A DNA stretch of 64,000 nt from the human T2T-CHM13v2.0 reference genome, Homo sapiens: the NCBI GenBank assembly GCA_009914755.4, contig CP086569.2, forward strand, positions 19,328,001-19,392,000, given 5' to 3'. Below the pieces are notes generated by a model, which was not told the DNA's origin, ran no database searches, and worked only from the letters and a program-made list of their open reading frames with translations. A program made the position numbers and the translations under genes. Below are positions 14,910-18,070 of this stretch, in pieces (the first letter of the stretch is position 1; every line of letters begins with the position of its first letter).

Positions 14910-17900
14910 TCCCTAAACCTAAACTTAATCATAACATTAACCTTAACCCTGCTTCTACCCCTAATCCTAATCCAGGATCCCTAACACTAACAGCAACCTC
15001 AAGCCTCAAACTTGACCCCAACATCAACCCTATGCCTAACCACTCACCAAAACCGAAGCCCCAAAACAAATCCCAACTCTAAATCCTAACTCTAACAGCT
15101 AAACCTGAATTTGACCCTGACCCTGATAATAACCCTAACCCAAGGGTAATCCAAACATTACATAAACATGAACTTAAACCCTAAGACTAAAACCCTAACC
15201 CTAAAGCCCTAACCCTAAGACAAAAACACTAATCCTAAACAAAAAACCCTATCTCTATCCATTAAAAGCTAATGTTAACCCTAAAATATTACCCCTAACA
15301 CTAACCACAACACCTAACACCTAGTCCTAAATTCTAGCTCCTAAACCTGCTTTCTGAACAGGAACATAACACTCATATTAAGTCTAATACTAAACCCTAA
15401 GTCCAATCCTAGAACTCTTATTACAACCCTAACCCTACACCTACCCAAAACCTAAACCTAGCTGTTACATAAAACCCAAACCCTAATCCTAACATTAATC
15501 TTTAGCCCAACCCTAACCCTACACCTAACCATAACCCCTAACCCTAAGCCTAAATAGTAACATTAACTCTAACCCTAATGTGTTACCCAATTTGTACCCT
15601 GATGCAAACCCTAACCCTAATTCTAACCAATAATCATAACCCTAACTGTAATCATAATTCTAAACATAACCTTAACCCCTTAATCTAAATTTAAACACTA
15701 ACGATAACTATAACCCTAAAGCATAACCTACTCCTACCCTAATGTTAACAGTAACATTAAACAATAATTCTAAACATAATCCTAATTCTAACACCATCTC
15801 CTTTCTATAACACCAACAGAACCATATCAACAAGCCCAATGAAAACACGAACAGTAACACTAAACACCAACCCTAACACTAACCCCTGACACAAATTCTA
15901 TATCCTAAAGCTAACCCTAACCCTAAATTTTAACCCATATCCTCTAGCCCTAACCCTAAAACTTACTCTATCTGGTAACCTAAAGGTAATCCTTACCCTA
16001 AATACTAACCCTAACTTAACTCTAAAACTAACCTTGAAACCTTAACCCAAAGCCAATCTCTTATTTTTATAAGTAATCTTAATGCTAACAATGAAACACT
16101 GAAGAAGTGAACCTAACCATAAGCTCAACACATAACCCTAACAATAACACCAATCCTAACTGTAAAATCGTAAATCCTGAACTTTAACACTAAAAGTAAC
16201 CTAACTCTAAACCCATCCCTAAAAATAAGCCTAAACCATGTCTCTAAAACTAAAACCTAACCATAATCCTAATCATTTCATAAATTGTAATCATAACCCA
16301 TAATCCTAACCATTAACCAAAACCCTAACCCTAAATGCTAAACTAAACCTTAGTCGCTAACTGTAACACTAACACAAACGCTAATCCCTAACACTAATCC
16401 TAAACCCTAACACTAACAGAAAACTCAATCCCTAATACCTACCCCAAATCCTAACCCTAACTTCAACACTAACACCAACACCAAATGTATGCCCAACCCT
16501 TACCACTATTCCTAAAGCTTTTACCGTTAACCCTACACCTTCATGAACACAACCCCAAATATAAACATAAACCTTACCTTACTCTAAACAGAGATTCCTA
16601 AGCCCAAATCCTAACCCTAACTGTAAAACTCACCCTAAAAAATACTCTAAACATTAGCCAAACCATAAACCCTAACTCTAACACTAACACCCAATCCCAA
16701 GCCCTACTCTAACCCTAACACTAACCCTAATCCTAATCTTTAGCCAAATGCTTTAGCCAAACACTTTAAAGATCATCCTAACCCTAACTAAACCACAACC
16801 AGGTACCCAACGTTAAACTGTAAACCAGCACTAAACCCTAACCCTAAAATTTAACACTAAACCAAACACTTTAATCATAACACTAACACTAAACATAACG
16901 CTCACCCTACTTTTAACCCTCATTCTGAATCCTAAACCTAACCTTAATCCAAACCGTAATGCGAACCCTTACACTACCACCTAAACCTAACCCTAATTCT
17001 AACTATAAAATCTGAAATCCCAAAAACACTTAAGATAACTTTAAATGCATCCCATAACTCTGAAACTCAGACTAAACACTAACCCCAATACCCTTATCCT
17101 AACAGTAAAACGAACATAATTCTAACATAATCTTAACCTTGGCACTAAACCCAAAAATAACTCTTACCCTAAACACTGAACCTAATCATAACCTTAACCA
17201 TAGATCATAAACCCTAACCATTAACACTAACCCTAGCCCTAAAACAAAACCTGTAACCATAATTAAACCTAAACCCTAAACCTAAACCTAATCTTAGCCC
17301 CTAACTCTAGAAAAACCATAATACCAACACTAACCATAAATGCTCACCCCTAACCCTAACAATAAACAAAACGCTGACACTAAACTCTAACCCTAGTCCT
17401 AAACTGTAAACCCAAACCTAAGTGTAAACCTAATCATGACCACTAACCTCAACCTCAAAACAGACCCAGCACTCTCATGCTGAACCTAAATACAAAGTCC
17501 TAATCGTATGTCCAACACTAACACTAACATCTAGCCAAAAATGATGAACATTAACCTTAACAATAACCCTGAACCCTAACCCTGAACCCTGAACCCTAAC
17601 TCTGAATATGACCATAAGCCCCATCCTAATGCTAAATATTAACCCAAACACTGAAACCTAACACTAACACTCTAACCCTTACCCTCACACTAACCCTTAA
17701 CACCAACCCTAACCCTGGCCATGATCCTAATTCCTAACCTCTAACTGTAAGCCTGGCTTTTTATGCTAAACCTAAGCATAACCCAACCCCAAACCTAACC
17801 TCTAACCCTGATTATGAACCTTAACCCTGAAGTCAACCCTAACCCTAGCCCATAACCCTAATCTTAACTCTAACTGCAACCGTAATCCTACCACAGCACT

Positions 17901-18070
17901 AAATCTTATCTCAAGTCCAGCGTTAACCCTCAGTCTAATACTGAAGTTGTTCTGCAATTGTAAACCATATCCTAATCCTCCGTTTCTATCCTATCCTTAA
18001 GGTTACCCCATTATGCTTAAAAAACTTTAAATACATCCTCTATGACTCTAACCTCTAACCCCTTATACCC
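14910..18070 (+). repeat. Highly degenerate interstitial telomere-like hexamer array, (CCCTAA)n on the + strand (= TTAGGG on the minus strand), ~3.2 kb
   Basis: Thousands of bases built from ccctaa, ctctaa, ccttaa, cactaa, cccaaa and ccctga variants, e.g. 'aaccctaaccctacacctaaccataacccctaaccctaagcctaa'. One orientation throughout, flanked by non-telomeric sequence on both sides. Confidence 0.9.

What the first reader, a model, noticed from the sequence alone, without database searches (positions are those of the whole stretch)
14910..18070. 3.2-kb highly degenerate interstitial telomere-like (CCCTAA)n array, single orientation
Arrays this long and this degenerate are uncommon outside subtelomeres. 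They can mark ancestral chromosome ends, subtelomeric duplications transposed internally, or sites of telomere-mediated repair. Many variant hexamers (cactaa, ctctaa, ccttaa, cccaaa, ccctga) point to an old array and could carry phylogenetic signal. The ~1 kb just upstream (13.85-14.9 kb) is moderately GC-rich and repeat-free by eye, and might be co-transposed subtelomere-derived sequence. Such arrays are also fragile and recombination-prone.
Basis: seen in the sequence. Interest (0 to 1): 0.55.

Follow-up and report, generated by a model that had tools for sequence, protein, structure and literature searches.

The report
Ancient decayed telomere-repeat tract, human
This is a real 3-kb stretch of badly eroded telomere-type repeats buried inside ordinary human DNA: an old, apparently inert relic that was later copied along with its neighbours, and so a known kind of feature rather than a new one.

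Summary
A single-orientation, degenerate (CCCTAA)n array runs from a sharp left edge at about 14,905 to about 17,895. A fading tail reaches about 18,065.

- **Content:** about 480-510 units, 59 exact CCCTAA and 0 TTAGGG.
- **Periodicity:** lag-6 self-match is 0.50, against 0.31 expected from composition.
- **Identity:** 73.5% to the perfect repeat, uniform along the array.
- **Structure:** variant units are randomly ordered. There is no higher-order repeat and no inverted arm.

The window is human. Three metagenome-derived contigs carry other versions of the same L1-leader-array block, about 85-86% identical to the window. Of the window's departures from CCCTAA, 82.5% are shared base-for-base with one such copy. 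The array was therefore already degenerate when the block was duplicated.

**Best reading:** a long, once-homogeneous telomeric tract attached to the DNA now on its right (an ancient L1). It became internal, decayed at the neutral rate, and was duplicated within a block that likely spans at least 10 kb.

**Unresolved:** whether it began as an internalised chromosome end or as telomeric DNA captured at a break.

The upstream 1 kb lies on the wrong side to be this telomere's own subtelomere. This is a known kind of feature and of low to moderate interest.

The parts
14905..17895 (+). Core degenerate (CCCTAA)n array, about 480 units. The G-rich TTAGGG strand is the minus strand.
   Evidence: 59 exact CCCTAA against 0 TTAGGG. 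Lag-6 periodicity and 73.5% wrap-around identity. Uniform 72-77% identity per 300 bp. Sharp left edge, and right edge at about 17,895.
17896..18065 (+). Twilight tail. It is either further-decayed repeats or the start of the adjacent L1; this is unresolved.
   Evidence: Best-phase match is 0.45-0.58, against a background of 0.36 and an array level of 0.6-0.75. Wrap-around identity is 0.637, the shuffle level.
14639..14904 (+). Non-repeat 'leader' directly upstream of the array, inherited together with it in the related copies.
   Evidence: Homologous in L001 and L003, at about 86% in L003. GC 0.47, CpG observed/expected 0.07. No Pfam domain. No other copy in the window.
13839..14638 (+). GC-rich (0.51), CpG-poor segment of unknown origin. 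Together with 13,745-13,838 it is missing from copy B.
   Evidence: L003 and L001 join window 13,744 directly to 14,639, with CTTCC at both break points. No L1 ORF2 similarity. No Pfam hit. CpG observed/expected 0.10.
13454..13838 (-). Old L1 (L1M-type) 3' ORF2 fragment, antisense on the + strand and ending at 13,838. It is part of the duplicated block.
   Evidence: tblastn to L1 ORF2p residues 1101-1137 at 13,839-13,726. 85.2% identity to the L1 part of L003 over 13,454-13,744, with an apparent shared gap of about 23 bp against an L1 consensus recalled from memory (inspection, not computed).
18131..19119 (+). Very old L1 ORF2 fragment (about residues 523-767) in sense orientation, abutting the array's proximal side. 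It is interrupted by an Alu at about 18,727-19,030 (minus strand).
   Evidence: A home-made frameshift-tolerant alignment scored 104-106, against shuffles at 60-68 +/- 8-9 (maxima 83-87) and 49 on the opposite strand. Plain tblastn, blastn and phmmer did not see it. The Alu is supported.

Best explanation
This is a relic of a long, once-homogeneous telomeric tract of roughly 500 TTAGGG units. Its G-strand is the minus strand, so it was attached to the DNA now on its right, an ancient L1 fragment. That flank was therefore once a chromosome end, or a broken end capped with telomeric repeats.

The distal end of the tract was later joined to the DNA now on its left, which made the tract internal. 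It has since decayed by ordinary point substitution and small indels at about the same rate as its flanks, and it is now effectively unique, inert sequence.

Well after most of the decay, the whole block was duplicated in the primate lineage. The block holds the old L1, the leader and the array, and probably at least 10 kb in all. The human genome therefore carries at least one, and probably two, further copies about 85-89% identical.

**Shown:**
- the repeat nature and single orientation;
- uniform, randomly distributed decay;
- degeneracy that predates the duplication;
- human origin;
- the existence of diverged copies.

**Inferred:**
- formation as one long pure tract;
- attachment on the right-hand side;
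- internalisation of an end rather than insertion;
- an age of about 100 Myr or more;
- absence of present function.
For: - **Telomere-type unit, strict strand purity and period 6**.
- **Uniform decay.** There is no gradient along the array: identity is 72-77% in every 300-bp bin.
- **Random order of variants.** There is no clustering at lags 1-8 in 2,000 permutations. Canonical units occur singly 39 times and in pairs 4 times.
- **No higher-order structure.** No long internal duplications and no inverted arm. This is what independent point decay of a pre-existing long tract predicts, not stepwise growth.
- **Frequency of intact units.** The 47 canonical units observed among 358 six-base units are close to the 52 or so I derived by multiplying the per-position identities.
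- **Copy B (L003)** is 85.2% identical over the L1 flank and 85.8% over leader plus array. The array has therefore evolved at the flank rate since the split.
- **Shared degeneracy.** 127 of 154 departures from CCCTAA are shared base-for-base with L003. The copies are about equally degenerate: 73.6%, 71.9% and 71.2%.
- **Relative age.** The Jukes-Cantor distance is at least 0.33 from the array to the canonical repeat, against 0.16 between the copies. From the per-position error rates, I estimate the decay is roughly 3-6 times older than the duplication per lineage.
- **Right flank** is a very old L1 ORF2 fragment running away from the array. That is the geometry of repeats added onto a broken or terminal end.
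- **The window is human.** ORF 24,369-24,824 occurs exactly in five contigs labelled human gut metagenome, and those contigs are identical to the window outside a VNTR.
- **The paralogy extends further.** L004 is about 88% identical over 20.8-23.8 kb.
Against: - No orthologous locus from another species could be examined. The age, and the choice between an internalised end and an insertion, therefore rest on inference.
- 73.5% is an optimistic identity, because the same alignment gives 63% on shuffles. The distance to the ancestral state is imprecise.
- The error pattern is not a textbook neutral spectrum. The three C positions are changed in 35-40% of units, against 11-19% for the TAA positions, and C>A (241) is as common as C>T (246). 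The tract might have been heterogeneous from the start, or indels may be masquerading as substitutions.
- The array-L1 junction is blurred over about 200 bp.
- The related contigs come from low-coverage metagenome assemblies and are mosaics. One of them is plainly chimeric and carries an adaptor. Copy number and structure of the paralogues are therefore uncertain.
Confidence: 0.55

Rival explanations
1. Telomeric DNA was inserted at an internal double-strand break. It was either synthesised by telomerase on the right-hand broken end or captured from extrachromosomal telomeric DNA, and the two ends were then re-joined. On this view the left and right flanks were neighbours before the event, and no chromosome end was ever involved.
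For: The geometry matches the best explanation: single orientation and repeats attached to the right flank. A sharp left junction with no target-site duplication is what end-joining gives. This mechanism is documented for primate and rodent ITSs (PMC7215372 and PMC8537989 abstracts; PMC6410037).
Against: Documented repair insertions are short, at 2-25 nearly exact units (PMC6410037; bioRxiv 10.64898/2026.03.19.712643). Here about 500 units existed before decay. No TERC-derived flank was found. The two flanks are unlike each other: a GC-rich non-L1 segment on the left and an ancient L1 on the right. That neither supports nor excludes former contiguity.
Confidence: 0.3
2. This is a subtelomeric-type ITS. 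It would be a degenerate TTAGGG-like island belonging to a family of subtelomeric duplicons, either still near a chromosome end or transposed inward with its block.
For: Degenerate arrays of this kind are described in subtelomeres (PMC6410037). The block has paralogues, and the related contigs are patchworks of about 85% and 100% identity. This resembles subtelomeric patchwork exchange.
Against: The array is 3 kb, not a few hundred bp. The context is AT-rich (GC 0.38) and full of L1, ERV and Alu. No second telomere-like island and no terminal telomere occur in 64 kb. Paralogue identity of about 85-89% is lower than I recall for typical subtelomeric duplicons, and that figure rests on my own knowledge.
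Confidence: 0.1
3. The array grew in place from a short ITS or a chance (TAACCC)n microsatellite, through slippage and unequal exchange.
For: Tandem Repeats Finder reports a few local 2-4 copy periodicities of 12-44 bp. Insertions outnumber deletions 148 to 35, and the mean period is about 6.2.
Against: Variant units do not cluster at any lag from 1 to 8. No higher-order repeat or long internal duplication exists. Identity is uniform. Any expansion must therefore have finished while the array was still pure, which makes this hard to tell apart from a telomeric tract.
Confidence: 0.04
4. This is the terminal imperfect telomere-like repeat (T1-type) of an endogenous roseolovirus-like herpesvirus, or an unrelated satellite that only resembles CCCTAA.
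For: HHV-6 direct repeats carry degenerate telomere-like arrays (titles and term counts returned).
Against: No viral relatives of the junction ORF were found in the viral contig collection. The leader ORFs have no Pfam domain. The flanks are L1 elements. The commonest unit is the canonical hexamer, and the TRF consensus is TAACCC.
Confidence: 0.01

Closest known systems
Subtelomeric-type ITS (degenerate TTAGGG-like blocks; classes as summarised in PMC6410037)
   Same: Both are tandem hexamers in one orientation. Many units differ from TTAGGG by one or more substitutions. The array is carried within duplicated DNA.
   Different: This array is several-fold longer (3 kb, about 500 units) and more eroded (about 9% intact units). 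It sits in AT-rich, L1-rich DNA with no recognisable subtelomeric features in 64 kb.
Fusion ITS at human 2q13-q14
   Same: Both are kilobase-scale degenerate telomeric repeats inside a chromosome, interpreted as former chromosome ends.
   Different: The 2q13 site has two arrays head-to-head. Here there is one orientation only, with 0 TTAGGG and no inverted repeat. This array is also much more decayed.
Short ITSs inserted during double-strand-break repair, including TERC-ITSs (PMC7215372, PMC8537989)
   Same: Both have a single orientation, no target-site duplication, and repeats attached to one broken end.
   Different: Short ITSs have 2-25 nearly perfect units. This array has about 500 units at 73% identity and no TERC-derived flank.
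Intrachromosomal TTAGGG blocks in ATP10A and MICAL3 introns, and 'diffuse clusters' of telomere-like motifs catalogued in T2T-CHM13 (PMC12795821; bioRxiv 10.64898/2026.03.19.712643)
   Same: All are non-terminal human clusters of telomere-like motifs of unknown function, thought to be remnants of translocated telomere fragments.
   Different: This window has only 83 exact hexamers on both strands, so it would fall below the 100-per-100-kb cut-off used in PMC12795821. I could not check whether this locus is in the published cluster lists.

Membership tests
Interstitial telomeric sequence (generic) | Tandem array of the vertebrate telomeric hexamer TTAGGG/CCCTAA | tested here: met
   Period 6; consensus TAACCC/AACCCT; 59 exact copies and 227 within 1 mismatch; the canonical unit is the commonest.
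Interstitial telomeric sequence (generic) | Non-terminal chromosomal position | tested here: inconclusive
   14.9 kb and 46 kb of non-telomeric DNA flank the array, and the window contains no terminal telomere. The chromosomal position of the window could not be determined.
Short ITS / telomerase-mediated break repair insertion | Few (2-25) essentially exact units | tested here: not met
   About 480-510 units at 73.5% identity.
Short ITS / telomerase-mediated break repair insertion | Array absent from the orthologous locus of outgroup species, with flanks contiguous there | not testable with these tools
   No primate or mammalian genome collection was available. The bacterial, viral and metagenome scans found only human-derived fragments.
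TERC-ITS | Flank retro-transcribed from telomerase RNA next to the repeats | tested here: not met
   A permissive Rfam scan of 13,500-18,600 (E up to 10) gave no telomerase RNA match.
Fusion ITS (2q13 type) | Two arrays head-to-head, (TTAGGG)n-(CCCTAA)n | tested here: not met
   0 exact TTAGGG and 1 within 1 mismatch inside the array; no inverted repeats.
Subtelomeric ITS | Degenerate TTAGGG-like units, several hundred bp | tested here: inconclusive
   The degeneracy matches, but the length is about 3 kb.
Subtelomeric ITS | Embedded in subtelomeric duplicon blocks near chromosome ends | tested here: inconclusive
   Paralogues at about 85-89% identity exist. However, the context is AT-rich and L1/ERV-rich, no other telomere-like island is present, and the position in the genome is not known.
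Heterochromatic ITS (het-ITS) | Very large (hundreds of kb) pericentromeric blocks | tested here: not met
   The array is 3 kb and is surrounded by interspersed repeats, not satellite.
Herpesvirus (roseolovirus) terminal T1 repeat | Imperfect telomere repeats next to viral DR sequence and pac motifs | tested here: not met
   No viral relatives, no Pfam domains in the leader ORFs, and L1 flanks. The pac motifs were not searched for specifically.

The most novel reading that the evidence does not exclude
The array could be the eroded remnant of a real chromosome end of an early mammalian (pre-primate) ancestor. It would then mark an evolutionary fusion or healed-fission breakpoint. Its later duplicate copies may still exchange sequence with it: stretches of 222-370 bp that are 100% identical sit inside copies about 85% identical. 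In one Logan contig the switch lies within only 28 shared bases, which is shorter than the k = 31 that I recall Logan using. That would argue for real recombinant molecules rather than assembly chimeras. One untested speculation is that the copies are X-Y gametologues, which are known to undergo gene conversion.
Probability: 0.15. Interest if true: 0.5.

Novelty: new member of a known kind. Interest (0 to 1): 0.25.

Why it matters
The significance is modest.

- **Karyotype evolution.** If the orthologous array exists in other mammals and its two flanks belong to different ancestral synteny blocks, it would be a datable molecular scar of an ancient chromosome rearrangement. It would be much older than the 2q13 fusion.
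- **Decay of telomeric DNA.** The array is a natural experiment on how telomeric DNA erodes once it is no longer maintained. The three C (G-strand GGG) positions have changed two to three times as often as the TAA positions, and C>A is as frequent as C>T. This bears on the debate about oxidative damage at G-runs (PMC12795821).
- **Practical caution.** The block has diverged paralogues and gives mosaic contigs in short-read assemblies. Mapping and telomere-content tools should treat the locus with care.

I see no sign of a present-day function.

Tried and rejected
**Searches that found nothing useful**
- Rfam at gathering thresholds over the window, and a tRNA scan.
- An exact look-up of the junction ORF.
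- Protein searches with concatenated stop-free translations of the flanks and of the array.
- DNA pattern scans of metagenome and bacterial/archaeal genome collections.
- Further exact ORF look-ups.
- A search for the run accession in the literature.
- Cluster metadata, which were empty.

**Ideas considered and dropped**
- *The array plus leader is a transposable element starting at 14,639.* L001 suggested this. L003 then showed that the L1 upstream is homologous too, and that 13,745-14,638 is simply deleted in that copy.
- *L1 twin-priming or TERRA-L1 chimeric retrocopy.* The two L1 pieces are about 330 residues apart in L1 coordinates, and the order of the parts is wrong.
- *Insertion into a single L1.* The left L1 is antisense and the right L1 is sense, and the left flank has no ORF2 similarity.
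- *The related contigs are orthologues from another primate.* Contigs that combine about 85-88% stretches with 100% human stretches cannot come from another species.

**Detection of the right-flank L1**
- blastn, nhmmer, phmmer against PDB, and tblastn all failed.
- Only a home-made frameshift-tolerant alignment gave a significant score.
It was validated only by its strong hits to other L1 copies in the window.

**Not carried through**
- A six-frame Pfam sweep of the whole window was prepared but not run.
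Full report
**1. The observation**

The stretch is plainly made of CCCTAA-like hexamers on the + strand.

- **Counts.** Inside 14,910-18,070 there are 59 exact CCCTAA and no TTAGGG. With one mismatch allowed the counts are 227 against 1. The remaining 60.8 kb holds 12 exact copies of each.
- **Composition.** G falls to about 5% and A rises to about 40%.
- **Periodicity.** The fraction of bases that match at a lag of 6 is 0.50, against 0.31 expected from composition. 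Later peaks lie at 12-13, 19, 25 and 31, so the mean period is about 6.2.
- **Identity.** A wrap-around alignment to (CCCTAA)n gives 73.5% identity with 148 insertions and 35 deletions. Shuffles of the same bases give about 63% and strongly negative scores.
- **Tandem Repeats Finder.** It reports only fragments, but the period-6 consensus units are AACCCT/TAACCC.
- **Edges.** The left edge is sharp at about 14,905. The clear array ends near 17,895, and a fading tail runs to about 18,065.

So the feature is real. It is about 3.0 kb rather than 3.2 kb, and it has a single orientation. No inverted repeat was found.

**2. Anatomy of the array**

The alignment cuts the region into 513 units: 358 of 6 nt, 100 of 7 nt and 27 of 5 nt. 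Only 47 are canonical. The commonest variants are CACTAA, TCCTAA, ACCTAA, CTCTAA and CCTTAA.

- Identity to the canonical unit is the same (72-77%) in every 300-bp bin.
- Identical variant units are no more often neighbours, at lags 1 to 8, than in 2,000 random re-orderings. Canonical units occur singly 39 times and in pairs 4 times.
- There are no long internal duplications and no higher-order repeat.
- The number of intact units is close to the product of the per-position identities. My own arithmetic predicts about 52; 47 are seen.

Together these say that the units existed first and were then hit independently. The tract was long and homogeneous, and it then decayed. It did not grow by amplifying already mutated units.

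Errors are uneven across the unit. The three C positions are changed in 35-40% of units, T in 19% and the two A positions in 11-13%. C>A (241) is as frequent as C>T (246). This is more GC-to-AT biased and richer in transversions than the human germline spectrum as I recall it. It may be real: G-run damage is debated in PMC12795821. It may also reflect indels scored as substitutions, or some heterogeneity at birth. I leave it as unexplained.

Only 9 intact dimers, no trimer, 24 TAACCCTAA sites and 3 G-quadruplex-type motifs remain. CpG is depleted, at 0.28 observed over expected.

**3. Surroundings**

The window is primate DNA, with Alu elements, L1 pieces and ERV reading frames.

It is human. 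The 151-residue ORF at 24,369-24,824 is found exactly in five contigs labelled human gut metagenome. Those contigs are identical to the window except inside a 319-bp tandem repeat.

*To the left of the array:*
- a 266-bp non-repeat leader (14,639-14,904);
- an 800-bp GC-rich but CpG-poor segment (13,839-14,638; GC 0.51, CpG observed/expected 0.10);
- an old L1 3' fragment, antisense, ending at 13,838.

None of the reading frames in the leader region has a Pfam domain. The segment has no other copy in the window and shows no L1 ORF2 similarity.

*To the right:* ordinary searches saw nothing. A frameshift-tolerant protein-to-DNA alignment that I wrote shows a very old L1 ORF2 fragment in sense orientation from about 18,131 to 19,119, covering roughly residues 523-767. 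It scored 104-106, against 60-68 +/- 8-9 for shuffles and 49 for the opposite strand. An Alu interrupts it at about 18,727-19,030.

GC content is about 0.36-0.40 on both sides, with no compositional step.

**4. Related sequences elsewhere**

A protein search with the ORF that spans the leader-array junction found one Logan contig, L001. A degenerate scan of metagenome contigs found L002. An exhaustive profile search found a second protein whose contig is L003.

- **L003** is the cleanest. It is 85.2% identical to the window's L1 fragment (13,454-13,744) and 85.8% identical to 14,639-15,551. It joins 13,744 directly to 14,639, with CTTCC at both break points. It is therefore another copy of the same genomic block, here called copy B, with an 894-bp deletion. 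The same junction appears in L001, which comes from a different sample and assembler.
- **L001** is a mosaic. It matches copy B, then is 100% identical to the window over 14,746-15,104, then follows a third version over 15,105-15,224, then returns to copy B.
- **L002** is identical to the window over 15,011-15,232. It then follows yet another version, then unrelated sequence, and ends in a Nextera adaptor. It is at least partly chimeric.
- **L004** is a 4.1-kb human gut metagenome contig whose name carries k127. It is about 88% identical to the window over 20.8-23.8 kb and then 100% identical over 23.8-24.85 kb.

No species other than human can give contigs that combine about 85-88% stretches with 100% human stretches. 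These are therefore paralogues in the human genome, at least one and probably two. The paralogy appears to extend at least from 13.45 to 23.8 kb, although the stretch between 15.7 and 20.8 kb was not sampled.

I cannot settle whether the identical tracts are gene conversion or assembly artefacts. In L001 the left switch lies within only 28 shared bases. That is shorter than the k-mer of 31 that I recall Logan using (not checked), and it would argue for real recombinant molecules.

**5. What the copies say about age**

- Of the 154 aligned positions where the window departs from CCCTAA, 127 (82.5%) carry the same base in L003.
- The copies are about equally degenerate: 73.6%, 71.9% and 71.2%.
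- Since the split, the array has diverged no faster than the L1 flank.

So most of the erosion predates the duplication, and the array evolves at the neutral rate. Jukes-Cantor distances are at least 0.33 from the array to the canonical repeat and 0.16 between the copies, or about 0.08 per lineage. By position class, the decay is roughly 3-6 times older than the duplication. That range is my own estimate from the per-position error rates.

Using primate-lineage substitution rates from general knowledge, the duplication falls tens of millions of years ago and the tract at about 100 Myr or more. This is an inference with wide error, because the ancestral state and the alignment are uncertain.

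**6. How it most likely arose**

On the + strand, human p-arm ends read (CCCTAA)n followed by chromosome-internal DNA. For this array the internal side is therefore the right-hand flank, the ancient L1. The repeats were attached to that DNA, and whatever lies on the left was joined to the distal end later.

Two mechanisms fit:
- an ancestral chromosome end, or a broken end healed with telomeric repeats inside an L1, that was later internalised by fusion or translocation;
- telomeric DNA added or captured at an internal break that was then re-joined.

I favour the first, mainly on size. About 500 units is telomere-sized, whereas documented repair insertions have 2-25 units (PMC6410037). In addition, no telomerase-RNA-derived flank is present. 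The margin is small, at 0.55 against 0.30.

Growth in place, a subtelomeric-duplicon origin, a herpesvirus terminal repeat and an unrelated satellite are less likely, for the reasons given under the rival explanations.

**7. Comparison with what is known, and verdict**

This is an interstitial telomeric sequence. It does not fit any one of the classical human classes cleanly:
- it is too long and too eroded for a short ITS;
- it is not head-to-head like the 2q13 fusion;
- it is far too small for a heterochromatic ITS;
- it is longer than, and in a different context from, typical subtelomeric ITSs.

Non-terminal blocks and 'diffuse clusters' of telomere-like motifs have already been catalogued in the complete human genome, with unknown function.

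I therefore file it as a new member of a known kind. It is real and old, it has been duplicated, and it is probably inert. A specialist would find it mildly interesting as a possible scar of an ancient rearrangement and as a record of how unmaintained telomeric DNA decays, but not surprising. The decisive tests are genome placement and cross-species alignment, which these tools could not provide.

Noticed in passing
window 20,841-24,882 and L004: A human gut metagenome contig whose name carries k127 is about 88% identical to the window over 20.8-23.8 kb, then 100% identical over 23.8-24.85 kb. The region around the array therefore seems to lie in a larger old duplicated block with patches of recent identity.
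   Followed up: partly
window 23,522-24,260: A 319-bp tandem repeat (2.1 copies, 91% identity) with a nested 20-bp periodicity. It differs between the window and several human-derived contigs (9 clustered mismatches, small indels), so it looks like a polymorphic minisatellite.
   Followed up: partly
window 14,705-15,082 (+) and L001 268-783: An open reading frame of 125 aa (171 aa in L001) spans the leader-array junction. The block where L001 is 100% identical to the window ends 6 nt after the ORF's stop codon. The ORF has no Pfam domain and only two relatives among 1.8 billion representative proteins. This is probably chance plus ascertainment, because the contig was found through this ORF.
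   Followed up: partly
window 14,905-17,895: The substitution pattern is lopsided. The CCC positions are changed in 35-40% of units, against 11-19% for TAA. C>A (241) roughly equals C>T (246). Half of the inserted bases are A. This is not a typical neutral spectrum, and it may be partly an alignment artefact.
   Followed up: partly
window 2,100-8,700: A cluster of endogenous-retrovirus-like reading frames on the + strand (protease/RT-like, envelope TM-like). It appears rearranged or nested.
   Followed up: no
window 24,900-29,100 (minus strand): A comparatively well-preserved L1 ORF2, with up to 55-73% amino-acid identity to the L1 ORF2p query over residues 155-1275. It is much younger than the L1 pieces that flank the array.
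   Followed up: no
L002 690-1,555: The metagenome contig OJMF01005644.1 switches from human-like AT-rich DNA to CpG-rich non-mammalian sequence and ends in a Nextera adaptor. It is an obvious chimera in a public assembly.
   Followed up: no
window 37,546-37,684; 51,552-51,632; 20,406-20,511; 45,613-45,691; 49,362-49,497: These are assorted tandem repeats and microsatellites. They include a 67-bp x2.1 repeat (97%), a 34-bp x2.4 repeat (100%), and (AGAG)n, (TCCT)n and (AAGG)n runs.
   Followed up: no
window-wide Alu copies (e.g. 10.4k, 18.7k, 36.9k, 38.9k, 47.9k, 52.4k): Alu copies in the window are only about 67-75% identical to one another, which suggests mostly old (AluJ-age) insertions. None has landed inside the 3-kb array.
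   Followed up: no
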